NCBI GenBank assembly: GCA_034506395.1
Contig: JAPDPQ010000001.1
Location: 4,435 to 68,434, forward strand
DNA: 64,000 nucleotides
Source of the DNA: Candidatus Zhuqueibacterota bacterium
GTDB lineage: Bacteria; Zhuqueibacterota; Zhuqueibacteria; Thermofontimicrobiales; Thermofontimicrobiaceae
Reading direction: 5' to 3'
Below the pieces are notes generated by a model that searched no databases, had not been told where the DNA came from, and worked only from the letters and a program-made list of their open reading frames with translations. A program made the position numbers and the translations under genes. Below, piece after piece: positions 7,595 to 57,449 of this stretch; the stretch's first letter is position 1; each line of letters begins with the position of its first letter.

Positions 7595-7741
7595 GCCAAT
7601 CAAATCCAGCCATAAATTCATCGACACAATAGGTATTTTTCGCCGGTGGTTGAATGATCTTAATAGTTGATTAGAGACTTTCGTTCACATACAACAATTA
7701 TTTGGTTTATCATGCGATCACTTTAACGCTGGAGCGAACCC

Positions 7742-9187: not shown

Positions 9188-9188
9188 T

Positions 9189-10592: not shown

Positions 10593-10840
10593 CTTCAATT
10601 CAAGAGCGAGATAGCAGCGTTCATCCTCCGTTCGCCGTTCCTTCGGTCCTCGCTCAAGCCAGTCGCTTCAGGTTGTCAAATTTATATCGATGCAAAGGAT
10701 GAAATATTTGACGAGCTCAAAGAGATTTGCTTTTACGATTTTGGGCCCTATTTGCATTCTTTCAGAAAAGCGTTATATTTAATTGATCGTTATTTAATCT
10801 TATTTCGAATTGCTAATCGAACCAAGCGTAGAAAGATTAT

Positions 10841-11527: not shown

Positions 11528-11694
11528 AATCAGTCAGCGCTGACGACTTCATCCAATTGAATTAAAGCATCGACAAATTGCCGTGATCGCCAATTGCGCG
11601 AATTGACCCAATTAACCCAATTTTGCTATTCGCCAAATTAGCTTTATTCGTTTGAATTCGCTGTTTTATTCTATATCCCATCGCGCCAATCCAG

Positions 11695-12588
11695 ATGAAG
11701 GAGAACAAATTTTTGACTGCAAATCAGCAAGAACCGATCCAATCCACATACGACTGTATCCCCTGTGCTATCGGGAGCCTGATCACTCTATTTAAAAAAG
11801 GACTGGTTTCAGAAAGGGATCAGGAAATCGCCATGCGAGCATTATTGCGTTATCTCAGCACCATTGATTTCCATCAATCCCCTCCCCAAATCGGTCAACA
11901 GATGCAACGGATCATTCGACACGTGCTCAATAATCCTGATCCGTATTTAGAAATCAAACAGCAATTCAATCGCTTGCTTCTCGATCATTACGTTGAATTA
12001 AAAGCATGGGTGGACCAGGCGGCAGATCCATTTCAGATGGCATTGCGATTGTCCATCGCTGGAAACGTGATCGATTTCGGTCCGAATCAACGCTTTGATG
12101 TCCACCAAACATTGGAACGGGCAAAGACTATTGTCCTGGCGATCGATGATTCAGAGCCTTTGCGCCAGGCCATCTCGAAAGCAACGCTACTTCTCTATTT
12201 GGGAGATAATGCTGGCGAAATCGTGTTGGATCGTATTTTCCTGGAAACGATTAACCATCCCAATGTCTATTTTGCTGTTCGCAGTGCGCCCATCATCAAT
12301 GACGCATTGCTGGAAGACGCAATCATGGTAGGAATCGACAAAATTGCCCATGTCATCACCAATGGGGATGATGCGCCTGGGACAATCTTAGAGAACACCT
12401 CAGCCCAATTTAAGACAATTTTTGACCAAGCGGATCTGATCATTTCAAAAGGCCAGGGCAATTATGAGGGTCTTAGCTGCGTTGATAAAAATATCTTCTT
12501 TTTGCTAATGACCAAATGCGAGCATGTCGCTAATCATCTTGGAGTAAAAAAAGGTGATTTTGTGGTGAAACAAGGACAAGGTTGTTGA
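11695..12588 (+). CDS. DUF89 / ARMT1-like damage-control sugar-phosphate phosphatase family protein
   Basis: 297 aa with characteristic segments SIAGNVIDFG, LGDNAGEIVLD and KGQGNYEGL. Confidence 0.65.
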   Translation: MKENKFLTANQQEPIQSTYDCIPCAIGSLITLFKKGLVSERDQEIAMRALLRYLSTIDFHQSPPQIGQQMQRIIRHVLNNPDPYLEIKQQFNRLLLDHYVELKAWVDQAADPFQMALRLSIAGNVIDFGPNQRFDVHQTLERAKTIVLAIDDSEPLRQAISKATLLLYLGDNAGEIVLDRIFLETINHPNVYFAVRSAPIINDALLEDAIMVGIDKIAHVITNGDDAPGTILENTSAQFKTIFDQADLIISKGQGNYEGLSCVDKNIFFLLMTKCEHVANHLGVKKGDFVVKQGQGC

Positions 12589-15642: not shown

Positions 15643-17262
15643 ATGAAAAATTTTCTCCTCGTTGCCCTGGTACTCATGTTTTCACAACTTTTCTCTCCCC
15701 AAACAATTTTTTCCTGTACCAATTATTTGATCACCAAAGGTGCCGCTGTCGATGGCTCGACCATGATCACCTATGCCGCTGATTCGCATGAGCTCTATGG
15801 TGAATTATATTTCACGCCTGCTGCCGATCATCTTCCTGGCACGCTGCTCGATATTTACGAATGGGACACGGGCAAATTTTTAGGCCGGATCAAACAGGTG
15901 GCTCACACATATGCGGTTGTAGGCAACATGAACGAACATCAGGTCTCTATTGGGGAAACAACCTGGGGTGGTCGCGAGGAATTGAAGGATCCAAAAGCCA
16001 TCATGGATTACGGGAGTTTGATGTACATTGCCCTGCAGCGCGCAAAAACCGCCCGCGAAGCCATCAAAGTGATCGCGGATCTCGTTGCTGAGTATGGCTA
16101 CTATAGCTCGGGCGAATCGTTCTCTATCGCCGATCCCAATGAGGTCTGGATCATGGAGATCATCAGCAAAGGACCGAACAACAAAGGGGCGGTCTGGGTC
16201 GCTCGTAAGGTGCCCGATGGCTACATTTGCGCTCACGCCAACCAAGCTCGCATTCGGCAATTTCCATTGAATGATAAAGAGAACTGCCTTTATTCCCCTG
16301 ATGTGATCTCCTTTGCGCGCGAAAAGGGCTATTTTACAGGCGAGGACAAAGATTTCAGTTTTGCAGACGCTTACGCCCCCCTGGATTATAGTGCCTTGCG
16401 ATTCTGCGAAGCGCGAGTATGGAGCATGTTCCGACGTGCAGCCCCATCGTTGAACCTGTCGATCGATTACGTAAAGGGAGTGAAAGGCGCTGAGCCATTG
16501 CCATTATGGATTAAGCCTGATAAAAAACTTTCAGTCCACGATGTTATGGAATTGATGCGCGATCATTTTGAAGGAACCGAATTCGACATGACCAAAGATG
16601 TGGGGGCAGGGCCCTTTCAGCTTCCATACCGCTGGCGTCCGCTCACTTGGAAGGTCGATACCGTTACCTATTGTAACGAACGCGCAGTTTCGACTCAGCA
16701 GACCGGCTTTTCTTTTGTAGCCCAAGCGCGCTCGTGGTTGCCAGACCCAATCGGCGGCGTATTGTGGTTCGGCGTCGATGATACCTATAGCACAGTCTAT
16801 GTTCCCATGTATTGTGGAATTAAACAAGTCCCTCATAGCTTTGCAGTAGGCACTGGATCATTCGATGAATTTAGCTGGGAATCGGCTTTCTGGGTGTTCA
16901 ATTTCGTGGCCAACTATGCATATTCCCGATACAGCGATATGATCAAGGATATCCAAAAGGTGCAGCGTGAGCTGGAGGGAAAATTTTTCGCCGATCAATC
17001 GGAAATCGAAGCTGCTGCGCTGGCGTTATACAAACAATCGCCACAACTGGCCCGAGATTATTTGACCGAATATTCGGTAAAGCAAGGCGATGCCACGGTC
17101 CAGCGCTGGAAAAAATTGGGCGAATTCCTCCTGTATAAATATCTCGATGGAAATGTGAAAAATGAGCTGGGAAAAGTCACCCATCCCGGCTATCCTGAAT
17201 CCTGGTATCGCCGCATCGTTAACGAAACTGGCGAACATTTTAAAATGAAATCACTGCAATGA
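15643..17262 (+). CDS. Secreted C69-family dipeptidase (Ntn-hydrolase, Cys nucleophile)
   Basis: N-terminal signal peptide, then CTNYLITKGAAVDGSTMITYAADS. C69 enzymes start their mature chain at the Cys nucleophile. 539 aa. Confidence 0.75.
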   Translation: MKNFLLVALVLMFSQLFSPQTIFSCTNYLITKGAAVDGSTMITYAADSHELYGELYFTPAADHLPGTLLDIYEWDTGKFLGRIKQVAHTYAVVGNMNEHQVSIGETTWGGREELKDPKAIMDYGSLMYIALQRAKTAREAIKVIADLVAEYGYYSSGESFSIADPNEVWIMEIISKGPNNKGAVWVARKVPDGYICAHANQARIRQFPLNDKENCLYSPDVISFAREKGYFTGEDKDFSFADAYAPLDYSALRFCEARVWSMFRRAAPSLNLSIDYVKGVKGAEPLPLWIKPDKKLSVHDVMELMRDHFEGTEFDMTKDVGAGPFQLPYRWRPLTWKVDTVTYCNERAVSTQQTGFSFVAQARSWLPDPIGGVLWFGVDDTYSTVYVPMYCGIKQVPHSFAVGTGSFDEFSWESAFWVFNFVANYAYSRYSDMIKDIQKVQRELEGKFFADQSEIEAAALALYKQSPQLARDYLTEYSVKQGDATVQRWKKLGEFLLYKYLDGNVKNELGKVTHPGYPESWYRRIVNETGEHFKMKSLQ

Positions 17263-41733: not shown

Positions 41734-43947
41734 CTATTCCTCCCCAATTTCTTTTCCCAGAAAATTGCGAAACCAGAATTGAACATTCTCTCGCGTAGAA
41801 TGATTTCGCTTTGTCCCGCCAACACCATGTCGAGCATTTGGATAGAGCATCAATTCAAAATCTTTATCAAGGTCCTGAAGTTTGCTGATAAGCTGAATGG
41901 TATTTTGCATGTGAACGTTATCATCCATGGTCCCGTGTGTGATCAAAAGATGTCCTTTGTATTTATCGGCGTGAGTGAGCACTGAACCAAATTCGTAGCC
42001 CTGAGGATTTTCGTCAGGCCGGTCCATGTAGCGTTCCGTATAAACGCTATCGTACAATCGCCAATCGACCACAGAATATTCGGCAATTCCATGGGTGAAG
42101 TAGTCCGCACCATAGGTCAACGCCATGCATGTGGTGTAACCGCCATAGCTTCCCCCGGCGATACCGATACGATTGGGATCAATAAAAGGCTGGCTGCGCA
42201 ACCATTTTGCCGCCTCGATGAGATCATTCATCTCCCATTTCCCCAGATTGCGATGCATCAGCGCCACTCCTTTTTTTCCGAAATGACCTGAGCCACGATG
42301 ATCGACGCTGATCATGATGATGCCATGTTGCGCAAAATAGTGCCATCTCAACGATGGGAACGAATTCGACACAGTAGCGGCGGCCGGACCGCCATAGATC
42401 TGAAACAGAACTGGGTAACGCTGAGAAGGATCGAAATTCGGTGGCAAGACCCAAATAGCGGGTAAATCATAGCCATCGCCGGATGGGATGCTAAATAATT
42501 CCACCTTGCCCAGATCATATTCGTCAAGTAGAGGTGTCCTTTCGGTCCCGAGCGTACGGATGATTTTTCCTTCGGTATCGCAGAGATCGAGTTGGCTCGG
42601 ATGATGAATACTTTGATGCCGATCGATAAAATATTTTCCGCCCGGCGCAACTTGGCATCGGTGGCTGCCAGGGGTTTTTGTGAGTCGCTTCAAATTTTTA
42701 CCTTTTAAATCGACGACATAAAGATGGTTTTCGGTGGAGCGCTCTTTTGACCCATGGAAATAGACTAGATCATTCGCCTCGTCCACCAGCGCTATATCAT
42801 TCACATTCCACTCACCGCTGGTCAGCCGCTGTTTCAATTGACCATCCAAGTCGTGATAATAAAGATGTGCCCAACCGTCTTTATTCGAGCGAAGCAACAT
42901 CCCTCTGCCGTCTTTGAATAAATAGAGATCCTCAAAAAACTCAACCCAGCTATCCTGATGCTCTTGATAAATCAGCTTGATTTGACCGGTATTGGGATCA
43001 GCCGAGTAGATAATCAATTGATCCTGCCCACGATTCATCCATTGAAACAATAATTGTTTGCTATCTGGCGTCCAAAACGGCCAGGCCACATAGTGATCCG
43101 CCCGCTCATCGAGATCGACCCAGACCAGCTTGTTCTGATCGAGATGATAAATTCCCAGCCGGACATAAGGATTTGGATCGCCTGCTTTGGGATAGCGAGT
43201 GATCTCAAGTTCGCCATGCACACCATCAGCCCGATAGAGCGGGAAAGTCGGTACAGGGCTATCATCGAATCGCAGGAACGCGATCATGTTGCTATTCGGC
43301 GCCCACCAGAATGCTGCATAGCGCGAGGCTCGGCCTAAGATCTCTTCATAATACACCCAAGAGGCATAACCATTGTAGACCGTCTCGGACCCATCACAGG
43401 TCAGTTGGCGCTCAAGCCCGCTCTCCAGGTCCAATGCGTAAAGGTTATTTTGTCGCGTATAGGCAACATAGCGCCCGTTGGGCGAAAACTTCCCATTTTT
43501 CTCTGGAGCTGGTGTGGCAGTGATCTGTCTGAAGATTCGTTTCAAAGGAGAATAATAATAAAGATCATTTTCAGAGTTGAAGAGAAAACCGCTGTAATCC
43601 TCCAAACGATCTTCAAAGCTTTGCAACGAAAATCCCTCTGACAGGAGATCCTTGTGCTTCTCCTCGTCAAAATAAATCGATGACTCTCCAGTGCGGGCAT
43701 TGACTCGCAGCACCTTCCGAGTCGCTTTTGGACCTGTTCCAACTATTTGCCACTCCAGGTAATGTTTCTCATCCAGCCATCCAACGATCATGGGCAAATT
43801 TCCCAACAATTTTGGCTCAGCTCCTTTGAACACCTGGTTGAACGTGAGTCGCTTTTTTTGTGCCCAATTGTCCGAATAGGTCATTCCAAGTAATGAAAAA
43901 GTAACGAGCCAGAAAATAATCTTACCAAATCTCCCTTCCATGGTCAC
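41734..43947 (-). CDS. S9-family serine peptidase, dipeptidyl-peptidase IV-like (beta-propeller + alpha/beta-hydrolase)
   Basis: Signal peptide. C-terminal GGSYGGY nucleophile elbow plus Asp and His contexts (GTMDDNVHMQN...HGV). Confidence 0.85.
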   Translation of the reverse strand: MTMEGRFGKIIFWLVTFSLLGMTYSDNWAQKKRLTFNQVFKGAEPKLLGNLPMIVGWLDEKHYLEWQIVGTGPKATRKVLRVNARTGESSIYFDEEKHKDLLSEGFSLQSFEDRLEDYSGFLFNSENDLYYYSPLKRIFRQITATPAPEKNGKFSPNGRYVAYTRQNNLYALDLESGLERQLTCDGSETVYNGYASWVYYEEILGRASRYAAFWWAPNSNMIAFLRFDDSPVPTFPLYRADGVHGELEITRYPKAGDPNPYVRLGIYHLDQNKLVWVDLDERADHYVAWPFWTPDSKQLLFQWMNRGQDQLIIYSADPNTGQIKLIYQEHQDSWVEFFEDLYLFKDGRGMLLRSNKDGWAHLYYHDLDGQLKQRLTSGEWNVNDIALVDEANDLVYFHGSKERSTENHLYVVDLKGKNLKRLTKTPGSHRCQVAPGGKYFIDRHQSIHHPSQLDLCDTEGKIIRTLGTERTPLLDEYDLGKVELFSIPSGDGYDLPAIWVLPPNFDPSQRYPVLFQIYGGPAAATVSNSFPSLRWHYFAQHGIIMISVDHRGSGHFGKKGVALMHRNLGKWEMNDLIEAAKWLRSQPFIDPNRIGIAGGSYGGYTTCMALTYGADYFTHGIAEYSVVDWRLYDSVYTERYMDRPDENPQGYEFGSVLTHADKYKGHLLITHGTMDDNVHMQNTIQLISKLQDLDKDFELMLYPNARHGVGGTKRNHSTRENVQFWFRNFLGKEIGEE

Positions 43948-46752: not shown

Positions 46753-47697
46753 TTAGATCATGTTTAGGGTTTTGAGGAGAAAGATGCCCAAGGAGATAGT
46801 AATGATCGATCCAAGGGTGGTCATGACGATGATGTTGCCGGCCAATTCGCTATTGCAGCCCATTGCTTCCGCCATAACAAAGCTGACGATGGCGGAGGGG
46901 GTGGCGAACAAGAGAAATACCACCCCCAGGTCCTGACCAGAAAGACCCAATCGAAAGCCCAGCACTGCGATGGTTGCAGGGATAATGACGATTTTCAAAA
47001 TGGTAGCGACCGCCGCCAATCGCGCATCTTTTTTGATTTGCTCAAAATCCAATGAACCGCCGATCCCGAGCAGCGCCAGGGGCAATGTAATAGCCGCCAG
47101 GCTATTGATGGTTGTGATCAAAAACTGAGGTAACTCGATGTCGAAATACGAAAATGGCAGGGCGATGATGGTCGCAAGGATAAGTGGGTTGGTGAAAATT
47201 TCGGACAACATCTGCTGGAGCGTCAACTGTTTGTCGGCCCGGATCGGTACCGTCAATGCGATGATTGCCAGAATGTTATAGAGTGGCATGACGAACGCCA
47301 ACAAAATGGCCGCCTTACTCAGCGCTGCCGGACCAAACATGTTAGCGATCAGGGCAAAACCGATAATTGCAAAATTGCTGCGAAAACTGCCTTGAATAAA
47401 TGAAGCGCGATCCCGACCATTATTTGACAACCCCAGAGAGATCAGCCAGCTCAATGCAAAAAAAAAGAGCACACTGAGATAAACAAACAGGATCAGCTTT
47501 AGGCTGAAAGTCATTTTCAAATCGGTGCGCGAAAGGCTCTCGAATACCAGTGCTGGGGCGGCAACGGTGAACACGATTTTCGAAGAGATGCTCACAAAAT
47601 TGCCATTGATTAACCCCTTTTTCTTCAATCCATATCCCAAAAAAATAATCAAGAATACCGGGGCCACCCCATTGAATGAGAAAATCAGATTTTGCAT
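46753..47697 (-). CDS. AEC-family (auxin-efflux-carrier-like) transporter
   Basis: ~10 TM helices. Shows the N- and C-terminal AEC repeats (VAPVFLIIFLGYGLKKKGLI...). Confidence 0.75.
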   Translation of the reverse strand: MQNLIFSFNGVAPVFLIIFLGYGLKKKGLINGNFVSISSKIVFTVAAPALVFESLSRTDLKMTFSLKLILFVYLSVLFFFALSWLISLGLSNNGRDRASFIQGSFRSNFAIIGFALIANMFGPAALSKAAILLAFVMPLYNILAIIALTVPIRADKQLTLQQMLSEIFTNPLILATIIALPFSYFDIELPQFLITTINSLAAITLPLALLGIGGSLDFEQIKKDARLAAVATILKIVIIPATIAVLGFRLGLSGQDLGVVFLLFATPSAIVSFVMAEAMGCNSELAGNIIVMTTLGSIITISLGIFLLKTLNMI

Positions 47698-47753
47698 CGA
47701 AGGTTCTCTATTTCTCTCAAGGATTTTCATCGCGACAGATCGGTTGAAAATCC

Positions 47754-48833
47754 TCATTGTAAAATATTCTGTTTTTGCTCCAAATAATAAATATAATTCT
47801 CGAAAGAGACATCGGAGGGCACACGATGATCGACCATCGGGATATAGCCTCCCTGGTCTACCAGCGGAGCAATTCGCTCCAGCTCCCGATCGATGGCTTC
47901 TTTGCCTTTGATCAATGCTGTTTTATCCACACCGCCCATTAATAATATCGCATTGCCATATCGCTGTCGCAGCAGAACCGGATCGGTATGGAGCGCCTCG
48001 ATCGGAAACATGCAATTGATCCCTGCCTCCAACCAACCAGGCACTAACTCATATATACAGCCATCGCAGTCAAGCACATTAATATCGACGCCATATTTTT
48101 GCAGCGCTGCCGTAACCCGTTTATAGCGTGGCACCATCAGTTCCTGAAACAGCTTGGGCGAAATCAACGGCCCGCGATTATAACACATATCCTCCCACCA
48201 CCAGGCCATATCGACTCGAATTCCTGGGAGACTTTGCTCGATCAGCTGCAGTGTCAATTGGGTCAGATGCTCCATCATCTCTTCCACCCAGTCGCGATCA
48301 GTCATGATCGCAATAGACAGGTTTTCCATCCCCATCCAGTTTCGGAGAACGCCATAAAGGGAGCCGGCATCGAATCGGATTGGCATCCCGATCGCATGAG
48401 CTTCCACCACGGCTGCTCGAACATCTCCGATTCGCTCAGCGAAATTCGGATCGAGATGCTCAGTTCGATAGCGTTCCCAATCTTCCCGGGTCTCAATACC
48501 GAATTTCAGATAGCGAGGGATGGTCTCACCAAATTTTGGTGACTGACAGATGATCCCTTCTTCATTTTGATAGACCCTGTAGTCGGCTCCTTCCTCTAAT
48601 ACACGGTAGTCGAACCGCGGACAAAGGCCATTTTTAGCAGGTAGCCAGGGGATAATCTCTACGCCCTCCAACCCCAAATATCGTTCGACATCTTGGTTCG
48701 TTTTCACATGAACTGGCAGACCTTGCGTATGCCATTTCTCGATCGTCTCATCCCAATAGCCGAATTCCATATTAGGAACGCGATCTGGCTTTTGCCAGTG
48801 CATCACTCTATAAAAACGTTCTTGGGTCGTCAT
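47754..48833 (-). CDS. Uroporphyrinogen-decarboxylase (URO-D)-like family protein
   Basis: 359 aa. PDRVPNMEFGYWDETIEKW... and ...DCDGCIYELVPGWLEAGINCMFPIE are typical of the URO-D/MtaA-like TIM-barrel family. Confidence 0.7.
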   Translation of the reverse strand: MTTQERFYRVMHWQKPDRVPNMEFGYWDETIEKWHTQGLPVHVKTNQDVERYLGLEGVEIIPWLPAKNGLCPRFDYRVLEEGADYRVYQNEEGIICQSPKFGETIPRYLKFGIETREDWERYRTEHLDPNFAERIGDVRAAVVEAHAIGMPIRFDAGSLYGVLRNWMGMENLSIAIMTDRDWVEEMMEHLTQLTLQLIEQSLPGIRVDMAWWWEDMCYNRGPLISPKLFQELMVPRYKRVTAALQKYGVDINVLDCDGCIYELVPGWLEAGINCMFPIEALHTDPVLLRQRYGNAILLMGGVDKTALIKGKEAIDRELERIAPLVDQGGYIPMVDHRVPSDVSFENYIYYLEQKQNILQ

Positions 48834-49224
48834 TTTCGTCTCCAGTCATTGGTTTGACTTTAGCCGTCTGCAAGATTCCAAAATGCTACCCTGGGAATGT
48901 AGACACATCTGAATTTGCCGTTCAAAAAAATTAACGATGATCTTGCATTCGGAGCAATGTTTGGATCGATTTGAATCGCTTAATATAGTGCTCTCGCCCT
49001 AAAATAGCAAGCAAAACTTTCTGTTTGATCCAAGCCATATGAGACAAAAGTTTTCCTTGAAATTTTGGTTTTTTTTCTTAAATTGAATCTATAAGCATAT
49101 CGATCTCGATAAACTGCTCTCCATTTTTATGATGAGCAGAACTTTTTGCAATCTCAAGGAATGATAGATCGAAATATTAGGATTGGAGCAATAGAACGAA
49201 TCGTCAAAATAGGAGCGAATATCA

Positions 49225-51588
49225 GTGACGCCGAGAGTTGAGAAATTAAGAAGACAAAGCCTGGAGACTCCGACATCGATTACAGCAGAGCGAGCGGTTT
49301 TAATCACCGAATTCTATCGATCGCATGATGCATTGACTATCTCAGCGCCGATGCGCCGGGCATTGGCGTTCAAATATCTGATGGAACATAAAGCCGTTTG
49401 CATCAACGATGGTGAGTTGATCGTTGGCGAGCGCGGACCGGCTCCTCGGTCAACCCCAACATTCCCAGAGATCTGCTGCCATACGATTGAGGAGCTTGAG
49501 ATCCTCAATTCGAGGGAAAAAGTGAGCTACGCGGTCTCTGAAGAAACCAAGCGGATTTATCGCGAGCAAATTATTCCCTATTGGAAGGGAAAGACTATTC
49601 GGGAAAAGATCTTTGAGGAGATGACCGATGAGTGGAAAGCGGCCTATCGCGCTGGGATTTTTACCGAGTTCATGGAGCAACGCGCTCCTGGTCATACAGC
49701 ATTAGATGACAAAATTTACTTGAAAGGCTTTTTGGGATTTAAGAAAGAGATCGAAGAGCAACTGAGTCGATTGGATTATCTAAACGATCCGGAAGCGTAC
49801 GAGAAGCAGGAACAGCTCAAAGCCATGGCCATTGCTGCGGATGCCATCATTCGCTATGCCGAACGACATGCCGAACTCGCCCAACAAATGGCCCGCAAAG
49901 AATCTGATCCAGTCAGGAAACGCGAACTTGAGCAAATTGCAGAAATCTGCGCCTATGTCCCAGCCAATCCGCCACGAACCTTCTGGGAGGCGCTGCAGGC
50001 GTACTGGTTCACCCATGTTGGGGTGATTTCGGAATTAAACACCTGGGACGCCATCTGCCCTGGCCGATTCGATCAGCATTTTTATCCGTTTTACAAAAAG
50101 GACATTGAGTCTGGTCTATTGTCTCGAGAGGCCGCTAAGGAGCTTCTGCAATGCTTCTGGATCAAATTCAACAATCAGCCCGCCCCTCCAAAGGTGGGCG
50201 TCACTGCTCAGGAGAGCGGGACTTATAACGATTTTGCGCTGATTTCGCTGGCCGGACAAACGCGCGATGGAAAAGACGGTGCCAACGAGCTCTCCTATTT
50301 ATGCCTCGATGTATTGGAGGAATTGCGGCTGGTGCAGCCCCACTGTTGCGTTCAATTGAGCCAGCAAAATCCCGATCGCCTGCTGAAGCGTGCGCTCGAG
50401 GTCAATCGCACTGGTCTGGGTCAACCCTCGATCTTCAATCATGACGCCGTGGTCCAGGAGCTTATTCGCCAGGGCAAATCTATCGAAGACGCGAGGACCG
50501 GCGGCACCAGTGGGTGTGTGGAGACCGGGGCATTGGGCAAGGAAAATTACAATCTCACCGGCTACTTTAATATGATGAAAGTGCTGGAAATCACGCTCCA
50601 CAATGGCGTCGATCCCCGTACTGGAGAAAAGATCGGGATCGAAACCGGGGATCCCACTCGATTTGAAAATTTTGAGCAATTATTCGAGGCTTATAAAAGA
50701 CAGCTTCGGCACTTCATCGACATTAAGATCCGAGGCAATAACATCATCGAAAAAATCTATGCGCAATATATGCCCACGCCGTTTCTTTCATTGTTGATTA
50801 GCGATTGCATTCAACGTGGTAAAGATTATCACAATGGCGGAGCGCGCTACAATACAAGCTACATCCAGGGCGTTGGTTTGGGCAGCATTACGGACGCCAT
50901 GAGCTCATTGAAATATCATGTTTACGATCATCGCAAGCTCACCATGGAGCAGATGCTCAGCGTCCTTAAAGATAATTATGAGGGCCATGAAAGGATTCGG
51001 CAGATGATGCGCTATCAGACACCCAAGTACGGCAATGACGATGATTATGCCGATGAGATTATGAAGCGGGTATTTGAAGCCTACTTTGAAGCGATCGATG
51101 GCAGGAAAAATATGAAAGGAGGAACTTATCGCATCAACTTGCTCCCGACGACGGTTCATGTCTACTTTGGCTCAGTGGTGGGAGCAACTCCCGATGGTCG
51201 AAAGGCAGGAGACGTACTCTCTGAAGGGGTGTCTCCAGTTCAGGGGGCGGATCGAAACGGTCCAACAGCAGTGATTAAATCGGTAGCCAAAATCGATCAT
51301 TTACGCACGGGCGGCACTTTGCTGAATCAGAAATTTTCACCTTCGCTACTGAGCAGCGATAACGGACTCGCTGGACTCGCCCATTTGGTACGATCTTATT
51401 TTAAAATGAACGGACATCACATCCAATTTAATGTGGTGACCGCTGCTACGCTCCGAGCGGCTCAGCAGCACCCAGAGAAGTATCGCGACCTGATCGTTCG
51501 GGTGGCAGGATATAGCGATTATTTCTGCAACTTGAATAAAGGCCTGCAGGATGAGATCATCGCCAGGACCGAACATCAAAGCTTTTAG
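49225..51588 (+). CDS. Glycyl radical enzyme, PFL2 / dehydratase-eliminase type (Cys-x-Glu active site)
   Basis: 787 aa. C-terminal glycyl radical motif RVAGYSDYF. Active-site loop GGTSGCVETG. GTG start with an AGGAGCG SD. Confidence 0.9.
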   Translation: MTPRVEKLRRQSLETPTSITAERAVLITEFYRSHDALTISAPMRRALAFKYLMEHKAVCINDGELIVGERGPAPRSTPTFPEICCHTIEELEILNSREKVSYAVSEETKRIYREQIIPYWKGKTIREKIFEEMTDEWKAAYRAGIFTEFMEQRAPGHTALDDKIYLKGFLGFKKEIEEQLSRLDYLNDPEAYEKQEQLKAMAIAADAIIRYAERHAELAQQMARKESDPVRKRELEQIAEICAYVPANPPRTFWEALQAYWFTHVGVISELNTWDAICPGRFDQHFYPFYKKDIESGLLSREAAKELLQCFWIKFNNQPAPPKVGVTAQESGTYNDFALISLAGQTRDGKDGANELSYLCLDVLEELRLVQPHCCVQLSQQNPDRLLKRALEVNRTGLGQPSIFNHDAVVQELIRQGKSIEDARTGGTSGCVETGALGKENYNLTGYFNMMKVLEITLHNGVDPRTGEKIGIETGDPTRFENFEQLFEAYKRQLRHFIDIKIRGNNIIEKIYAQYMPTPFLSLLISDCIQRGKDYHNGGARYNTSYIQGVGLGSITDAMSSLKYHVYDHRKLTMEQMLSVLKDNYEGHERIRQMMRYQTPKYGNDDDYADEIMKRVFEAYFEAIDGRKNMKGGTYRINLLPTTVHVYFGSVVGATPDGRKAGDVLSEGVSPVQGADRNGPTAVIKSVAKIDHLRTGGTLLNQKFSPSLLSSDNGLAGLAHLVRSYFKMNGHHIQFNVVTAATLRAAQQHPEKYRDLIVRVAGYSDYFCNLNKGLQDEIIARTEHQSF

Positions 51589-51741: not shown

Positions 51742-52842
51742 TCATTGGTAATAGACCACGATGGCCTTGATCAGCCCAAACAATTTTTTATGAAGTTCCC
51801 ATGGGATACCATCGACTGACATAGCTGGGTGGCCAAGTTTGCCGTCAACGGCGATTCCAGTTTGAAAATAGCTCTCGATGAGTTTCGTTTCCGCAGCTTC
51901 ATCGAAAAGCTCGAGAAACTCATCGGCTCGATTCAGACAGAGATATAACCCAGCGATCAGTGCATAAGCTGCCCAATTGGACACTCCGGCCACGATAGTC
52001 GCATCGGCTGCCACGCGACAGGCAAATTTGCCCGCGTGGGCTGAGGCGATGTTGCACGCAATAACACGCCATGGAATGGAACCCATGCCGATTTCATTTC
52101 CTCCATCACCAATGCCAATCGTAAAAATCGGTTTCGAGGCGATCGTTTTGTTCTCGAATAACAGATGAATGGGGGCTGTGTCCTGACCAACCGGAAGGCC
52201 GTTCATCGTGAAGGGCTCGCCTTGCGATTCGCCCGGCCCTTGGGAAAGAAACCTGTTGAAATTGGATTCATCTGATAAATTTTCTTGCTTGGAGAACGAT
52301 TCGAGGGTATGGCTGGGTCCCACCCGTTCGATCGCGATCAAACAGCTCAGACGGTCATGGTTCAAGAAGAAATTTCGAACTTCTTCCATCATCATGTTGT
52401 TGTTGGCATATCGAATATCTTGTGCAGCCACATGATCGGACCGCGACCATTGAGAAGGGAATTCGATCAATTCACAATGATCCAGTTGATTGGCATAAAG
52501 GTGAACTCCCTGTGCCAGCAAGGGGAGGCCATAACGATCACTGATGAGCAAGACAGGGTATCCCAGCCGATTCAATCCTCGGGCCAGAAATAATGCACCA
52601 GGTGGGCCATCGTTCTCTGGCGCTGGTGGCTGTACATTCGGAATAAAAAAACCTGTCACAATGCCCACCTCATTGCCAGGATGCTCGATCAGAAATTGGA
52701 TCGCTTTCGCCAAATGACCTTGGGTCCTGGTACAGAGATTATCCTCTGGGATTCGGTGAATTCCGCGGCACCCCACATCGGTTTGAATGAGCCATTCCAA
52801 TTGCGCAAGCTGCTGCATTTTTATTTGGTCAGAAATTTTCAT
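51742..52842 (-). CDS. Conserved hypothetical protein (366 aa), possibly DUF4392-like
   Basis: ORF with conserved-looking blocks (GIVTGFFIP, FTIGIGDGGNEIGMG). Family assignment not secure. Confidence 0.45.
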   Translation of the reverse strand: MKISDQIKMQQLAQLEWLIQTDVGCRGIHRIPEDNLCTRTQGHLAKAIQFLIEHPGNEVGIVTGFFIPNVQPPAPENDGPPGALFLARGLNRLGYPVLLISDRYGLPLLAQGVHLYANQLDHCELIEFPSQWSRSDHVAAQDIRYANNNMMMEEVRNFFLNHDRLSCLIAIERVGPSHTLESFSKQENLSDESNFNRFLSQGPGESQGEPFTMNGLPVGQDTAPIHLLFENKTIASKPIFTIGIGDGGNEIGMGSIPWRVIACNIASAHAGKFACRVAADATIVAGVSNWAAYALIAGLYLCLNRADEFLELFDEAAETKLIESYFQTGIAVDGKLGHPAMSVDGIPWELHKKLFGLIKAIVVYYQ

Positions 52843-52916: not shown

Positions 52917-55900
52917 TTATCTTGCAATCACCATTTTTCGCGTGAGCCGTTCAGTCGGCGTAATTAAACTATAAAAATAGATACCGCTCACAACACTCTC
53001 TCCCAGATCATCCCTTCCATCCCAATAGATTGTGTAAAAACCAGCTTTATGAAACTCATCAACCAGCGTCTTGATCTTTCGCCCCAGCACGTTGCTAATC
53101 ATGATTTTCACCTGACCATCGGTTGGGATCTCATATTTGATCGAAGTCTGGGTGTTAAAAGGATTGGGATAATTTTGCCATAGCATGAATTTTTCTGGTT
53201 TGGGCGCTGTAAGAGCAATGACGTTGTGAAATTTTTTCTTGCCGGTCAAGCTCAACTGTTCCAATTTGTAAAAATAGGTTTTTCCCGCCTCAGCGGTGCG
53301 ATCCTGAAACGAATAATGCTCCTTTCCCGTGATGAGCTGATCGGTGAGCCGGGTGAAGTCCTTGTTGGGTGATTCGCTGCGATAAAGATGAAACCCTGCA
53401 CAATTGGTTTCATAGCTAATGATCCAAAAAAGATCAATGGTGGCATCGCTATTGATGCGGCCGAAGAAATTATCGAGCTGGGCAAATTGCGGATAATAAG
53501 AACAAGCCAAATTGCACTTTCGAAATCCAGATTGATAACCATTACTTGTCAACAACTTGACACGCCAGTAAAACGGTCGATCAATGCTGATCCGCTCAAA
53601 CCCGATCAATTGATTCAAGTTGATCCTCTTCGTTCGGCAGGTGTCGGTACTGATCAATTTTGAAAATGTGCTGTCCCAGCTGAGCTGAATCACATATCGG
53701 CACTTCGTGAGATCAATGTCCTGCGAAAGTAACGAATCATTTTCCCAAATGAATAGATCTTCCTCGTGAATTCGACCTCCTTGAATTGGGAAGATCAACC
53801 GAGGGGCAGGTAACTGGATTTGTTTGGCTGGATGAATCACCCAATGGTGCATGACTGTGGTATCGCGACCTTCGACAACGAGCCATACAGTATCACTCAT
53901 TGAAATGGCTGAATTGACACGATAACAAAAACTGCTGTCCTGGCCGATTTTCATAAGCTGCTGACCGATCGACCAACGATATTGAAGAACATCGCGATCT
54001 CCTTCGCGCACCCCAACCGAAAGGGTGAGGCTATCTGGTGGAGTAATTGAGAGTTCCTCTTCCTTGGGGTAAAATGCCAATCGGAATGGGCGAGCTTCCA
54101 GCATCTTGGCCTTTTGGATATACCAGCGATGAACGATCGCGCTATCTCCATGTTCGATCAGCACTGTAATTGTATCGATTTTCGAATCGCGAAAGACAGG
54201 ATGATAGACGAAAATCGAGTCCTGGGCTGAGGAGTCGATCTGATGATTAACTTTCCATCGAAACCGAAAGTCATTCTTGGCATGGCGAACCAGAAAGACC
54301 AAACTATCGCTCAAAACTACTACCGAATCCTGGGGCAGATAGTGAATTTTTTTGCTCTCGGCGATGGAATCGAGCGGGCTGGGCCATAAGATCCATTGCA
54401 AATAAATGGCAGTATCGGCATCGGTGATACTGAGCCTCAGGGTATCGACAGTTGAACGATTTTCGGTGCAGCTAAAAACATATTGGTGCTGGCGGGCTGA
54501 GCGATCGATCAGGCCATTGAGTGACCAACTATATCGCAAACTGTCATGATCCGGATCCTGGCACAGCACTTGAAATTGAATGCTATCGCTTTTGACGATG
54601 AACGAATCAAGCGGGGGAGAACAATACCGGATTTGAGGTGCTCGATTTGGCCGCACTTTTGTGCTTACAATCCAGCGATGCGTCATGGAGCTATCCTGAT
54701 CCGCAATTTCGACTACAATCGTATCTAGGACTGTCGATTTATCCCCTTTGATAAATTTGTAGCTTGGCTCAACGGCAATGTTATCTTTCTTGCCATTGAT
54801 CAACCAACGCCAGTGATATTTCCCTCTCGCAACAGAATCAGCTAAAACCGATAGGATCAGAGTATCCCCAAATGCAATAGTCGTGTCAGATTGGGGCAGA
54901 AATCGCAAATCATTCAGGAGCCGGCGCGCCACGATCAAATCTACGATCCATTGATGTCTTAAGGTGGTATCTGAGGCAATAATGGTCACTGCAATAACAT
55001 TCTTGCCGGAGACGAGGGAATCGGAGGGGATCAATACCCAAGGATTTATGCTTGGTGCAAAAATTCTCTCATTAACCTGCCAGCGAAAAGAGAGCGAATC
55101 GACATCGGACGAGAACGTTTGTATTGAACATTTGAGCCGATCACCTATCCTTATGGTTGTATCTGATTTGGGGAATGTCCCAACAATAGCGATCTTGTTG
55201 GCGCTTTTCTGAGGCCACAAAATCCAGGAATGAATCAGAGTAGTGTCTTCATCAAAATGTCTGATTTTTACCGTGATGGTATCATTGGGTTTCTGTTCGA
55301 ACTGGTATGATTGAAAGGCAATTCGATTCGAATCATTCGAAATGGGCTTTCTATTCAACAGCCATTGAAATGAATATTTTTCTGAATCAATTGGCACGAC
55401 AGCAAAAGATATCGACGCCCCTTTTAAGATTGATGTATCTTGGGAGGGAAAAAATTGGAATAGGGATCGCAGCTCGGGATGAACAAACACAACATTGGAT
55501 CTTGTGATTTCATGAGCGACCGAATCAAAAGCAGAGATATAATACCAGTAGCGCTGATTCGGATTGGTGTTGACGTCTGTGAAAAGAGTATCCGAAGCCG
55601 GGAATTGAGAGATGGGTCGAAACGATCGCTGATGCTCCTCTTTTCGGAAGAGACAATAGCCCGCAAACTCAGGATCGCCAGTCCACTGCAAACTTGGAGG
55701 AAATCGATTAACGATTGTTAAACTGGGTGGTTGGATAATTCGGTTTATGAACGTAAACTCTTTCTCACAACGAAAACCCTCTTGTGTTGATATTTCGAGC
55801 ACAAGTCTGGCTTTATAGCCATGCGGACAATCGCCATTCATCGTTAATATCATCGGCGCCAATTCGTTGGTGAATTCCTGATTGTATTCCAATACAGGAA

Positions 55901-57449
55901 GAGTCACGTTCGAATTTTCGATGGCGACTTGAAGATCGCGGCTGAAGAGTTGCATCGATATCCCATGGGCAGTTGAAGAGAGATTTTTGATCTTGAACCA
56001 GATTGGAACCGAAAGACAATTTGATTTATGATCTTTTTCGCCAGATAGATCAAACTGGATTTGTCGAACGACGATATTCGGCAGGAATTGGGAATTGACC
56101 GCACGGAAGAAATTGATTCTCCCAGCTCCCAGTTGGCCATAATAACCAGAGTTTTTCTGATAAATATTGTCACTGCTCCATAGAATTCTTTTCTTCAAGC
56201 TGTCGGTGGTGATGATTTTTTCATTGGACAACAATATCCCAGCTAAGCAAGTGACATGGGCAGCGGCGATGGATGTGGGTGAAGGCCAATATTTAATCGA
56301 ATCTGTTGCACTGATGGATGCGAAAAGCTGAGCAGGGGCAGCCAGATCGATCCAGGGCCCGAAATTGCCGGATGAAATTTTTTGGTCATATTGATCTGTT
56401 GCCGTGACTGACCAGACCTCAGGAAAGGCGGCTGGATAAGCCGGCGCTTGGGCAAAATAATCTCCAGCAGCAGAGATGATCACCACATCGCGCTTGGCAG
56501 CGTATCGGATTGCGTGGTGAAGCAATCGAGAGGAATCTTCTCCAGCCCAACTCAAACATATAACTCGAGCGCCGTGATTAGCCGCGTAGACGATCGCTTG
56601 GGCTGCTGCAGCAGCGGGTACCAAGATTTTGCCTTGTCGCGTCAACAAACCTGCTTTCAACGCCATCAGCGTCAATCGACCTCCTGAGCGAAAACTCGTC
56701 CAATTAAGCAGCGGCTGCATGATCATTCTTGCCAGAGAAGTTCCGTGTCCTGACTCGTCAATGGATTGATTGGTCCAATCGATCCCGTATCGGACCATCA
56801 TTTCCCTGGGCACAAAATTCCAGCCACAAAGATCATCAACCAGGCCATTGCCATCATTATCTTTTCCATCAGCCTTTTCTAGCCGGTTATGCCAGAGAAT
56901 TTCGCTCAAATGGGGATCGGTCTGATCGACCCCAGCATCGATACTGGCAATTGTCAGCGAATATTTTGGGCTCAGCTTTTCTAACAGATCGATTGTTTGC
57001 ATTTCCAACGGCATAACGATCGGCGGATTCGTCGTCACTTCCGCATAATAAAAATAATTGTAATCGACCCAATCAACATCTTTTAATTTTTCATAACTGC
57101 TCCTGATCCTCGAGGCCGCGATCCCGTTGGAAAATCGCAACAAATAACAGCGATCCAGAGGATTTCCATTAATCGGTCCTCTGCTGAACAACGGAATTAT
57201 CTCTTTTAACCGATAAATCGCGTTAAGAGAATCTAATTGAAAAACTCCAGTCAAAAATGGCGACTTGCTCAGATTGATTTTCAATGGAGACTTCAATCGA
57301 ATAATGAGTTCGTTACGCGCATATTGCTCTGATATTACGGAAGGCTGAGCATAAACGACTTGCGGAACGATAAAAAGTTGGCGGGGCGCTAAGATGGAAA
57401 TACTCAGCACAATAAATCCAGCTATAATTTTTATACCAACCTTCTTCAT
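52917..57449 (-). CDS. Large secreted subtilisin-like (S8) peptidase with multiple Ig/FN3-like repeats and a T9SS (Por) C-terminal sorting domain
   Basis: Signal peptide. Asp (SIDAGVDQTDPHL), His (DESGHGTSLA) and Ser (PTSIAAAHVTCLAGIL) contexts. ~800 aa of repetitive beta-rich modules. C-terminal ...GFYTIYWDGRDDLGESVVSGIYFYSL... matches the T9SS CTD. Confidence 0.8.
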   Translation of the reverse strand: MKKVGIKIIAGFIVLSISILAPRQLFIVPQVVYAQPSVISEQYARNELIIRLKSPLKINLSKSPFLTGVFQLDSLNAIYRLKEIIPLFSRGPINGNPLDRCYLLRFSNGIAASRIRSSYEKLKDVDWVDYNYFYYAEVTTNPPIVMPLEMQTIDLLEKLSPKYSLTIASIDAGVDQTDPHLSEILWHNRLEKADGKDNDGNGLVDDLCGWNFVPREMMVRYGIDWTNQSIDESGHGTSLARMIMQPLLNWTSFRSGGRLTLMALKAGLLTRQGKILVPAAAAAQAIVYAANHGARVICLSWAGEDSSRLLHHAIRYAAKRDVVIISAAGDYFAQAPAYPAAFPEVWSVTATDQYDQKISSGNFGPWIDLAAPAQLFASISATDSIKYWPSPTSIAAAHVTCLAGILLSNEKIITTDSLKKRILWSSDNIYQKNSGYYGQLGAGRINFFRAVNSQFLPNIVVRQIQFDLSGEKDHKSNCLSVPIWFKIKNLSSTAHGISMQLFSRDLQVAIENSNVTLPVLEYNQEFTNELAPMILTMNGDCPHGYKARLVLEISTQEGFRCEKEFTFINRIIQPPSLTIVNRFPPSLQWTGDPEFAGYCLFRKEEHQRSFRPISQFPASDTLFTDVNTNPNQRYWYYISAFDSVAHEITRSNVVFVHPELRSLFQFFPSQDTSILKGASISFAVVPIDSEKYSFQWLLNRKPISNDSNRIAFQSYQFEQKPNDTITVKIRHFDEDTTLIHSWILWPQKSANKIAIVGTFPKSDTTIRIGDRLKCSIQTFSSDVDSLSFRWQVNERIFAPSINPWVLIPSDSLVSGKNVIAVTIIASDTTLRHQWIVDLIVARRLLNDLRFLPQSDTTIAFGDTLILSVLADSVARGKYHWRWLINGKKDNIAVEPSYKFIKGDKSTVLDTIVVEIADQDSSMTHRWIVSTKVRPNRAPQIRYCSPPLDSFIVKSDSIQFQVLCQDPDHDSLRYSWSLNGLIDRSARQHQYVFSCTENRSTVDTLRLSITDADTAIYLQWILWPSPLDSIAESKKIHYLPQDSVVVLSDSLVFLVRHAKNDFRFRWKVNHQIDSSAQDSIFVYHPVFRDSKIDTITVLIEHGDSAIVHRWYIQKAKMLEARPFRLAFYPKEEELSITPPDSLTLSVGVREGDRDVLQYRWSIGQQLMKIGQDSSFCYRVNSAISMSDTVWLVVEGRDTTVMHHWVIHPAKQIQLPAPRLIFPIQGGRIHEEDLFIWENDSLLSQDIDLTKCRYVIQLSWDSTFSKLISTDTCRTKRINLNQLIGFERISIDRPFYWRVKLLTSNGYQSGFRKCNLACSYYPQFAQLDNFFGRINSDATIDLFWIISYETNCAGFHLYRSESPNKDFTRLTDQLITGKEHYSFQDRTAEAGKTYFYKLEQLSLTGKKKFHNVIALTAPKPEKFMLWQNYPNPFNTQTSIKYEIPTDGQVKIMISNVLGRKIKTLVDEFHKAGFYTIYWDGRDDLGESVVSGIYFYSLITPTERLTRKMVIAR

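What the first reader, a model, noticed from the sequence alone, without database searches (positions are those of the whole stretch)
47754..51588. Orphan PFL2-type glycyl radical enzyme with no adjacent activase, next to a URO-D-like gene and an AEC transporter
The 787-aa glycyl radical enzyme has the RVAGYSDYF glycyl loop and a GCVE Cys-loop, which points to dehydratase/eliminase-type chemistry. The usual partner radical-SAM activating enzyme is not adjacent; no CxxxCxxC ORF lies within several kb on either side. Divergently upstream are a URO-D-like TIM-barrel protein and an AEC permease. Downstream is a conserved hypothetical. The substrate cannot be guessed from context. It has no N-terminal encapsulation extension, so it is probably not BMC cargo.
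Basis: seen in the sequence. Interest (0 to 1): 0.5.

Follow-up and report, generated by a model that had tools for sequence, protein, structure and literature searches.

The report
Hydroxyproline dehydratase gene without neighbouring activase
The "orphan" glycyl radical enzyme is an ordinary trans-4-hydroxy-L-proline dehydratase (HypD) in an uncultured KSB1 bacterium whose activating-enzyme gene is not nearby and is probably elsewhere in the genome, so the substrate is not a mystery and the finding is largely routine.

Summary
Window 49225-51588(+) encodes an intact 787-aa glycyl radical enzyme (GRE) with a GCVE Cys loop and an RVAGYSDYF Gly loop. No activase lies near it. I found none from about 53.7 kb upstream to 22.4 kb downstream.

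The interpretation "substrate cannot be guessed" is wrong. The protein scores 1321.5 bits on NCBIfam's HypD equivalog (cutoff 1100). It is 56% identical to crystallised C. difficile HypD. All 15 HypD catalytic or substrate-contacting residues checked are conserved.

The organism is a candidate division KSB1 (Zhuqueibacterota) MAG. Relatives with 74-76% identical HypD carry the activase directly upstream. The subclade at 83-100% identity has lost it from that position in every assembly seen, so this is not an assembly artefact.

The gene is under strong purifying selection (dN/dS 0.03-0.04) and keeps the same Gly loop as activase-linked orthologues. Activation in trans is the likely explanation, but I could not test it. 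The arrangement is not rare: 14 of 75 informative orthologous loci also lack a nearby activase.

The URO-D-like and AEC genes form a separate coupled pair. Their family is not linked to HypD outside this subclade. A conserved palindrome and promoter-like block lie upstream of hypD.

Verdict: new member of a known kind, low interest.

The parts
49225..51588 (+). hypD: trans-4-hydroxy-L-proline dehydratase, a glycyl radical enzyme of 787 aa. Catalytic residues are Cys431 and Glu433 (Cys loop), Gly762 (Gly loop), Asp275, His157 and Asp336 (acid/base network), and Ser331, Phe337, Tyr447 and Thr642 (substrate binding).
   Evidence: NF043068 glycl_HYPD scores 1321.5 bits against a cutoff of 1100. 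It is 56% identical to PDB 6VXC over 780 columns. All 15 HypD active-site residues are identical (residue list from PMC7077986). dN/dS is 0.03-0.04.
49001..49066 (.). Inverted repeat with 20-nt arms, 85% complementary, and a 26-nt spacer. It is a probable operator for the hypD promoter.
   Evidence: One search finds the repeat. The core pattern is unique in the window (1 match, 0.01 expected). Among the 170 fetched loci, eight of the nine matching loci are hypD upstream regions of this KSB1 subclade, and one (L111) looks like a chance match. It ends 171-172 nt before the hypD start in the window, L084 and L092. It is conserved although synonymous sites are saturated.
49057..49084 (+). Promoter-like block (TTGAAA-16-TAAATT) directly after, and overlapping, the right arm of the palindrome. 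It is conserved in four species of the subclade.
   Evidence: The consensus scan is, though the region as a whole is not enriched over shuffles.
47754..48833 (-). URO-D / MtaA-superfamily TIM-barrel protein of unknown function (359 aa), divergent from hypD. It is context; it has not been shown to belong to the Hyp pathway.
   Evidence: Pfam URO-D scores 45.4 bits over part of the protein. The AlphaFold model has pLDDT 95.1. The best PDB folds are a Methanosarcina mazei methyltransferase (PDB 4AY7, MtaA-like) and uroporphyrinogen decarboxylases, with TM 0.63-0.67 and 13-17% identity. Among 80 metagenome loci of this family, only the three KSB1-subclade loci carry HypD.
46753..47757 (-). AEC-family (Mem_trans) permease. 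Its start overlaps the URO-D-like stop by 4 nt, so the two genes look translationally coupled.
   Evidence: Pfam PF03547 scores 110.4 bits and TIGR00946 scores 98 bits, below its cutoff. The overlap is seen. The pairing with the URO-D-like gene is kept in L084, L086, L087 and L093.
51742..52842 (-). DUF4392 / D-glutamate-cyclase-like C-terminal domain protein, convergent with hypD. It is context only.
   Evidence: PF14336 scores 185 bits. PDB relatives are uncharacterised proteins such as TON_0340. The gene sits beside hypD only in the window's species and in L084/L092. L086 and L087 have unrelated genes there.
41734..43947 (-). Dipeptidyl-peptidase IV (S9B) family peptidase. It is a plausible supplier of X-Pro or X-Hyp peptides, but this is context only.
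   Evidence: DPPIV_N scores 308.5 bits and Peptidase_S9 scores 177.9 bits. DPP-IV homologues lie just downstream of hypD in L056, L058, L069, L075 and L085.
52917..57449 (-). 1510-aa S8 subtilase, with only a faint match to a type IX secretion sorting tail. Probably a secreted protease; context only.
   Evidence: Peptidase_S8 scores 65.8 bits. The Por_Secre_tail match is faint.

Best explanation
The gene encodes a functional trans-4-hydroxy-L-proline dehydratase (HypD) in a candidate division KSB1 bacterium.

The mechanism is inferred from the characterised C. difficile enzyme. A radical SAM activase abstracts a hydrogen atom from Gly762. The glycyl radical then generates a thiyl radical on Cys431. 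The thiyl radical abstracts a hydrogen atom from C5 of hydroxyproline. Asp275, supported by His157, Asp336 and Glu433, handles the proton transfers. Water leaves from C4. Hydrogen-atom return gives delta-1-pyrroline-5-carboxylate (P5C), which housekeeping enzymes would convert to proline or glutamate.

In the ancestor of this KSB1 subclade, the activase gene that normally sits directly upstream of hypD was removed from that position. hypD is now a separately transcribed gene. It has its own conserved promoter-like block and palindromic operator. It is presumably activated in trans by a GRE activase encoded elsewhere in the genome.

The URO-D-like / AEC pair and the DUF4392 gene are neighbours by lineage-specific gene order. 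They are not demonstrated pathway partners. Nearby peptidases fit a peptide-scavenging lifestyle that would supply hydroxyproline.
For: Identity (shown):
- NF043068 HypD equivalog scores 1321.5 bits against a cutoff of 1100. The next equivalog models score 605 bits or less against cutoffs of 1000 or more.
- The best PDB match is HypD 6VXC at 1074 bits. Glycerol dehydratase, the next, scores 597 bits.
- Identity to 6VXC is 56%. Residues F152, R156, H160, W277, D278, K326, S334, D339, F340, C434, V435, E436, Y450, T645 and G765 are all identical. Their roles come from PMC7077986.

The gene is functional (shown):
- dN/dS is 0.028 (window vs L084) and 0.041 (L086 vs L087).
- The active-site string is identical in all six KSB1-type sequences compared.

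The activase is absent locally (shown).

The absence is derived and not an artefact (shown):
- The activase is directly upstream in L085 (74% identity) and L088 (76%).
- It is absent in L001-L003, L084, L086, L087 and L092.

The arrangement is not unusual (shown): 60 of 80 orthologous loci have the activase immediately upstream, 1 has it 2.8 kb upstream, and 14 of the 75 informative loci have none.

Trans-activation (inferred): the Gly loop RVAGYSDYFC is the same in activase-less and activase-linked orthologues. Gly-loop identity is the best-known determinant of activase recognition, and cross-activation is documented, for example PFL-AE acting on TdcE (PMC13450708).

Independent regulation: the palindrome and promoter block are conserved at a fixed distance from hypD.
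Against: - No activase has been located for this genome. I could inspect only about 78 kb of it.
- The homologue list for a related activase contained no entry attributable to KSB1, and the two closest candidates I looked up sit next to other GREs.
- The review says cross-reactivity between activases and non-cognate GREs is rarely documented.
- The URO-D-like / AEC linkage to hypD persists across species whose synonymous sites are saturated. That leaves some room for a functional link.
- No proC or P5C dehydrogenase was found in the window.
Confidence: 0.8

Rival explanations
1. The URO-D-like enzyme and the AEC permease work with HypD as a lineage-specific pathway. For example, they might take up and pre-process a hydroxyproline derivative, or handle the product. 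All three genes would be co-regulated from the shared divergent intergenic region.
For: The AEC / URO-D-like pair stays next to hypD in species with 83-100% HypD identity, while the downstream genes change. A conserved palindrome lies in the shared intergenic region. The wider URO-D-like family often sits beside a POT/PTR2 peptide transporter, in 31 of 80 loci, which hints at peptide or amino-acid metabolism.
Against: None of the 80 HypD orthologue loci outside the subclade has a URO-D-like, AEC or DUF4392 neighbour. Only the three KSB1-subclade loci among 80 URO-D-like loci have HypD. The palindrome keeps a fixed distance to hypD (171-172 nt), not to the URO-D-like gene. In L087 three unrelated genes separate the pair from hypD. 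The URO-D-like family is 60-68% conserved across several phyla, which fits a general role.
Confidence: 0.1
2. The enzyme is a silent or decaying relic. The subclade lost the activase altogether, so HypD can no longer be activated.
For: No activase lies within 53.7 kb upstream or 22.4 kb downstream. None was recovered from the homologue search.
Against: The reading frame is intact in all assemblies seen, across four or more species. dN/dS is 0.03-0.04 with synonymous sites saturated. Every catalytic residue and the Gly loop are unchanged. The promoter and operator are conserved. A gene with no function would not be held this constant over this much divergence.
Confidence: 0.05
3. It is a GRE of a different, undescribed substrate specificity that merely resembles HypD.
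For: Only sequence evidence is available and no assay was done. The usual operon partners (activase, proC, M24 peptidase) are missing.
Against: The score is above the curated equivalog cutoff. All substrate-contacting residues shown by mutagenesis to be essential or important in HypD are identical. The only difference among the inspected positions is V640 to Ile. Other characterised specificities score far lower: HplG 452 bits, CutC 478-512, and glycerol dehydratase 597.
Confidence: 0.04
4. The missing activase is an assembly or binning artefact.
For: The sources are metagenome-assembled genomes.
Against: The same URO-D-like / hypD junction is seen in independent assemblies. These include four NCBI MAGs, a 922-kb contig, a 260-kb JGI contig and two more distant species. 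The intergenic sequence is continuous and alignable across them.
Confidence: 0.01

Closest known systems
Trans-4-hydroxy-L-proline dehydratase HypD of Clostridioides difficile (PDB 6VXC/6VXE; Backman et al. 2020, PMC7077986)
   Same: It has the same length class (787 vs 789 aa) and 56% identity over 780 aligned columns. The Cys loop GCVE is identical. The Gly loop is RVAGYSD(Y/H)F. All HypD-specific catalytic and binding residues are identical. It passes NCBIfam's HypD equivalog cutoff.
   Different: No activase (HypD-AE) and no P5C reductase gene lie beside it. Clostridial loci carry both (PMC6219649). The host is an environmental FCB-superphylum bacterium, not a gut Firmicute.
Environmental HypD loci with the order activase-hypD(-M24 Xaa-Pro peptidase), e.g. 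L085 and L088 (74-76% identity) and Anaerolineae loci (64-71%)
   Same: The enzyme is orthologous, with an identical active-site string and Gly loop. DPP-IV and other peptidases recur nearby.
   Different: In those loci the activase ends 1-84 nt before hypD in most cases. Here that slot is a 390-nt regulatory intergenic region facing a URO-D-like gene.
Other PFL2-type GRE eliminases: B12-independent glycerol dehydratase, propanediol dehydratase, choline TMA-lyase CutC, isethionate sulfite-lyase, HplG
   Same: They share the ten-stranded barrel fold family, the CxE Cys loop, the RVAGYS-type Gly loop and radical elimination chemistry.
   Different: Scores are far below each family's equivalog cutoff: 544-605 bits against cutoffs of 1000-1050. 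The HypD-specific residues (Asp278, Asp339, Ser334) that replace those families' residues are present here.
Uroporphyrinogen decarboxylase HemE and methylcobamide:CoM methyltransferase MtaA (relevant to the neighbouring gene 47754-48833)
   Same: The fold is the same TIM-barrel superfamily, with TM 0.63-0.67. Pfam URO-D matches the C-terminal half.
   Different: Identity is only 13-17%, and phmmer finds no PDB relative. The MtaA-type NCBIfam model scores 24 bits against a cutoff of 244. The invariant motifs WWWEDM and DCDG and several invariant His and Asp residues define a separate, uncharacterised subfamily.

Membership tests
HypD (trans-4-hydroxy-L-proline dehydratase, NCBIfam NF043068) | Full-length score above the curated equivalog cutoff | tested here: met
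   1321.5 bits against a cutoff of 1100, covering residues 4-785 of the protein and 3-783 of the 784-position model.
HypD (trans-4-hydroxy-L-proline dehydratase, NCBIfam NF043068) | Glycyl radical site (Gly765 in C. difficile numbering) and the CxE Cys loop (Cys434-Val435-Glu436) | tested here: met
   Gly762 lies in RVAGYSDYF. Cys431-Val432-Glu433 lie in GCVE.
HypD (trans-4-hydroxy-L-proline dehydratase, NCBIfam NF043068) | HypD-specific acid/base and substrate-binding residues: His160, Asp278, Asp339, Ser334, Phe340, Tyr450, Thr645, plus Phe152, Trp277, Arg156 and Lys326 | tested here: met
   All are identical at the aligned positions 157, 275, 336, 331, 337, 447, 642, 149, 274, 153 and 323. 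Their roles are taken from PMC7077986.
HypD (trans-4-hydroxy-L-proline dehydratase, NCBIfam NF043068) | Catalytic conversion of trans-4-hydroxy-L-proline to P5C after activation | not testable with these tools
   This needs anaerobic reconstitution with an activase and a coupled P5C reductase assay.
Canonical GRE two-gene system (GRE plus cognate radical SAM activase in one locus) | An activase gene (CxxxCxxC, Fer4_12/Radical_SAM, about 300 aa) adjacent to the GRE gene | tested here: not met
   None is present in the 64 kb window or in the extensions of about 4.5 kb and 10 kb. It is present directly upstream in 60 of 80 orthologous loci.
Canonical GRE two-gene system (GRE plus cognate radical SAM activase in one locus) | An activase encoded somewhere in the same genome | not testable with these tools
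   Only about 78 kb of the genome could be read. Indirect attempts failed.
Clostridial Hyp-to-Pro Stickland module (hypD, hypD-AE, proC) | A P5C reductase gene adjacent to hypD | tested here: not met
   No proC-like family appears among the ORFs of the window that were scanned.
GRE-associated bacterial microcompartment (GRM) cargo | An N-terminal encapsulation extension on the GRE, and shell genes in the same locus | tested here: not met
   The N-terminus is co-linear with C. difficile HypD from residue 4. The only shell genes in the window lie about 38-44 kb away, in an aldolase / aldehyde-dehydrogenase type locus that has no GRE or activase.
Pyruvate formate-lyase (TIGR01255) | Score above the equivalog cutoff, and the adjacent Cys-Cys pair in the Cys loop | tested here: not met
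   133 bits against a cutoff of 994. The Cys loop is GCVE, with a single Cys.
Uroporphyrinogen decarboxylase HemE / MtaA methyltransferases (for the neighbouring gene) | Family-level sequence score | tested here: not met
   No HemE model was hit in NCBIfam. The MtaA-type model scores 24 bits against a cutoff of 244. Similarity is at fold level only.

The most novel reading that the evidence does not exclude
In this KSB1 subclade hypD may have been uncoupled from its activase and placed under a dedicated palindromic operator, next to an uncharacterised URO-D-superfamily enzyme and an AEC permease. On this reading the three genes form a new route for taking up and processing hydroxyproline or a hydroxyproline derivative, for example from plant or algal hydroxyproline-rich glycoproteins or from collagen peptides. 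HypD would then be switched on by a shared, promiscuous activase that serves several GREs.
Probability: 0.08. Interest if true: 0.45.

Novelty: new member of a known kind. Interest (0 to 1): 0.15.

Why it matters
The result matters little beyond annotation. The source records call this protein only "glycyl radical protein", and it can safely be renamed trans-4-hydroxy-L-proline dehydratase. That extends anaerobic hydroxyproline use to candidate division KSB1 (Zhuqueibacterota), and fits the nearby peptidases.

A second point is mildly useful. About a fifth of environmental hypD loci, including this whole KSB1 subclade, lack a neighbouring activase although the enzyme is under strong purifying selection. 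Trans-activation of GREs may therefore be more common than the few documented cases suggest. Genome-context methods that require an adjacent activase will miss such genes.

Tried and rejected
1. Activase remnant. I looked for a degraded activase in the 390-nt intergenic region and across the whole window and L084, using tblastn with four activases. Nothing scored better than E=0.4.

2. Activase elsewhere in the genome.
- I searched the 5.8-billion-protein database with the activase of the closest activase-bearing relative. No listed hit is attributable to KSB1.
- The two closest non-self candidates I looked up (P0153, P0142) each sit directly upstream of another GRE in other organisms.
- Cluster look-ups of ten NCBI-sourced hits gave no taxon names.
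- This line of enquiry is unresolved.

3. Extending the window.
- Look-ups of window-edge proteins added about 10 kb on the right and 4.5 kb on the left.
- One look-up failed because the ORF start I chose is not the one on record.
- The two radical SAM genes found there are HemW-like and PTO1314-family, not GRE activases.

4. Functional link between HypD and the URO-D-like, AEC or DUF4392 genes. I tested this with reciprocal neighbourhood surveys of 80 loci each. No link exists outside the subclade.

5. Other checks.
- An Rfam scan found only one tRNA and no riboswitch upstream of hypD.
- Promoter and terminator scans are not enriched over shuffles.
- A literature search for KSB1 together with hydroxyproline found nothing relevant.
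- My first distance table for activase adjacency was distorted by over-extended ORF starts. I replaced it with a tblastn-based count.


Full report
**What is there.**
The window carries a 787-aa ORF at 49225-51588(+). It starts with GTG, has AGGAG 7 nt upstream, and contains no internal stops. Pfam finds a full PFL-like domain (805.5 bits) and a glycine-radical domain (131.2 bits).

Divergently upstream lie a URO-D-like gene (47754-48833, -) and an AEC/Mem_trans permease (46753-47757, -). These two overlap by 4 nt. Convergently downstream is a DUF4392 / D-glutamate-cyclase-like gene (51742-52842, -). The description in the finding is therefore accurate.

**The activase really is missing locally.**
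- No ORF of 80 aa or more in any frame of the 64 kb window contains CxxxCxxC.
- tblastn with four HypD activases finds nothing better than E=0.4 in the window or in the syntenic locus L084.
- I extended the view by looking up window-edge proteins on other contigs of the same species. This added about 10 kb to the right and 4.5 kb to the left.
- Those extensions hold two radical SAM genes only. One is HemW-like (315 bits on TIGR00539). The other is a PTO1314-family protein. Neither hits a GRE-activase model.
- So there is no activase within about 53.7 kb upstream or 22.4 kb downstream of the gene.

**What the enzyme is.**
- NCBIfam's equivalog model for trans-4-hydroxy-L-proline dehydratase (NF043068) scores 1321.5 bits against a curated cutoff of 1100.
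- Every other equivalog model falls far below its cutoff. Sulfopropanediol dehydratase scores 605 against 1000, CutC scores 544 against 1050, and PFL scores 133 against 994.
- The best solved structure is C. difficile HypD (6VXC) at 1074 bits. Glycerol dehydratase, the next, scores 597 bits.
- Mapped onto native C. difficile numbering, identity is 56% over 780 columns.
- All residues that Backman et al. found to contact hydroxyproline or to mediate proton transfer are identical. These are Phe152, Arg156, His160, Trp277, Asp278, Lys326, Ser334, Asp339, Phe340, Cys434, Val435, Glu436, Tyr450, Thr645 and Gly765. Mutagenesis in that paper confirmed the catalytic or binding roles of several of them.
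- The statement that the substrate cannot be guessed is therefore not supported. Sequence identifies the enzyme as HypD. NCBI already names some orthologues that way, whereas this protein is labelled only "glycyl radical protein".

**Organism and evolutionary history of the arrangement.**
The exact protein occurs in several candidate division KSB1 MAGs. KSB1 has been proposed as the phylum Zhuqueibacterota, in the FCB superphylum (PMC11683472).

The same junction, with no activase, is seen in these assemblies:
- three further assemblies of the same species (L001-L003);
- a 91% orthologue on a 922-kb contig (L084);
- a 260-kb JGI contig (L092);
- two more distant species at 84% and 83% identity (L086 and L087).

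In L087 three extra genes, including a PadR regulator, are inserted between the URO-D-like gene and hypD. The next relatives, at 76% and 74% identity (L088 and L085), have the activase ending a few bases before hypD and an M24 Xaa-Pro peptidase after it. The activase-less state is thus a derived rearrangement at the base of one KSB1 subclade. It is not an assembly artefact.

**Is the gene still used?**
- Between activase-less species, synonymous sites are near or at saturation, while dN/dS is 0.028 and 0.041 for the two measurable pairs.
- The 15-residue active-site string is identical in all six KSB1-type sequences compared.
- The Gly loop and its flanks are the same in activase-less and activase-linked orthologues: RVAGYSDYFC in 14 of 14 and 53 of 65 loci respectively.
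- The 2026 GRE review notes that Gly-loop sequence is the best-known determinant of activase recognition, and that cross-activation is documented (PFL-AE on TdcE, HPAD-AEs, IBSS-AE). It stresses that such cases are few.
- I therefore infer, but could not show, that an activase encoded elsewhere activates this HypD.

**How unusual is an orphan hypD?**
I fetched 80 orthologous loci at 64-71% identity from GTDB species representatives.
- 60 have the activase immediately upstream.
- One has it 2.8 kb upstream.
- 19 have none. Five of these have too little upstream sequence to judge.
- That leaves 14 of 75 informative loci (19%) with no activase. They are mostly Chloroflexota, plus a Poribacteria MAG. 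Four of them have a full 10 kb on both sides.
- A motif check found no alternative radical SAM activase in these loci. The one good CxxxCxxC hit, in L083, has a CTRTCGFC motif that looks like lipoyl synthase to me.
- The orphan arrangement is thus recurrent and not special to this window.

**The neighbours.**
None of the 80 HypD orthologue loci has a URO-D-like, AEC or DUF4392 homologue. In the reciprocal survey of 80 metagenome loci encoding URO-D-like homologues (58-86% identity), only the three KSB1-subclade loci carry HypD, and none carries an activase.

The URO-D-like family is strongly conserved, at 60-68% identity, in proteins labelled as KSB1, Sumerlaeota, Acidobacteriota and Elusimicrobia. 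In 31 of 80 loci it sits next to a POT/PTR2 peptide transporter. Its AlphaFold model is confident (pLDDT 95.1). The model matches a Methanosarcina mazei methyltransferase (PDB 4AY7, MtaA-like) and uroporphyrinogen decarboxylases at TM 0.63-0.67, with only 13-17% identity. phmmer finds no PDB relative. Invariant WWWEDM and DCDG motifs and several invariant His and Asp residues mark it as a distinct subfamily of unknown function.

The DUF4392 gene accompanies hypD only in the window's species and in L084/L092. I conclude that these genes are neighbours by lineage-specific gene order. A functional link to the URO-D-like/AEC pair is not excluded, and I put it at about 0.1.

**Regulation.**
The 390-nt divergent intergenic region contains an inverted repeat with 20-nt arms (49001-49020 and 49047-49066).
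- Its core pattern is unique in the window (0.01 expected).
- Among the 170 fetched loci it occurs in nine. Eight are hypD upstream regions of this subclade, and one (L111) looks like a chance hit.
- It ends 171-172 nt before the hypD start in the window, L084 and L092. Its distance to the URO-D-like gene varies.
- It is followed by a conserved promoter-like block, TTGAAA-16-TAAATT at 49057-49084.
- This suggests that hypD is an independently transcribed, regulated gene in this clade. The regulator is unknown.
- Rfam finds no RNA element there.

**Physiological reading (inference).**
The rest of the window is mainly housekeeping genes. Three peptidase genes stand out: a DPP-IV family peptidase (41734-43947), a 1510-aa S8 subtilase with a faint type IX secretion tail (52917-57449), and a C69 dipeptidase (15643-17262). 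DPP-IV homologues also follow hypD in Gemmatimonadota and Bacteroidota loci and in L085. This fits release of Hyp-containing peptides, followed by dehydration to P5C. No proC or P5C dehydrogenase lies in the window, so the fate of P5C is unknown.

**Verdict.**
This is a well-conserved HypD orthologue, a new member of a known family in an uncultured phylum. Its activase gene has moved away from it or is shared, as happens in about a fifth of related loci. The one open point is where the activase is. That needs a whole-genome search I could not run.

Noticed in passing
window 3470-12588 (+): A complete-looking bacterial microcompartment locus lies about 38-44 kb upstream of hypD. It holds an RpiB-DeoC fusion (3470-4876), a CsoS1D_N/BMC-like protein (5064-5693), a BMC-H shell protein (6063-6383), a BMC-P protein (6613-6912), a GNAT acetyltransferase (7028-7594), an aldehyde dehydrogenase (7742-9187), a tandem-domain BMC protein (9189-9812), two more BMC-P proteins (9799-10089 and 10320-10592), a class II aldolase (10841-11527) and an ARMT1-like phosphatase (11695-12588). 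From memory it resembles the PVM or sugar-phosphate-utilisation BMC types. It has no GRE or activase, so it is not a GRM-type compartment for HypD.
   Followed up: partly
window 49001-49066, with promoter-like block 49057-49084: A conserved inverted repeat (AAAATAGCAAGCAAAACTTT / AAAGTTTTCCTTGAAATTTT, 26-nt spacer) sits a fixed 171-172 nt upstream of hypD in three KSB1 species. It is a probable operator, and its regulator is unknown. A PadR gene sits in the equivalent region of L087.
   Followed up: partly
window 47754-48833 (-) and loci L091-L170: The URO-D-like protein belongs to a widespread, highly conserved, uncharacterised subfamily of the URO-D/MtaA superfamily, 60-68% identical in proteins labelled as several different phyla. 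It has invariant WWWEDM and DCDG motifs and no sequence-detectable PDB relative. A POT/PTR2 peptide transporter is its neighbour in 31 of 80 loci.
   Followed up: partly
loci L015, L018, L019, L022, L023, L025, L027, L029, L037, L053, L072, L076, L079, L083: Fourteen HypD orthologue loci, mostly Chloroflexota plus one Poribacteria MAG, also lack any activase within the sequence available. Four of them have 10 kb on both sides. Detached hypD activases seem to be a recurrent feature in environmental lineages.
   Followed up: partly
L056, L058, L069, L075, L085 (downstream of hypD); window 41734-43947: DPP-IV family peptidase genes recur within a few kb of hypD in Gemmatimonadota, Bacteroidota and KSB1-like loci. 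M24 Xaa-Pro peptidases directly follow hypD in L085 and L088. This suggests a common peptide-to-hydroxyproline catabolic module.
   Followed up: no
L173 448-1365 (-), about 3-4 kb left of the window start: A 305-aa radical SAM protein of the PTO1314 family (126.7 bits, below its cutoff of 306) lies next to a PLP-dependent decarboxylase. Its function is unknown. It does not match GRE-activase models.
   Followed up: partly
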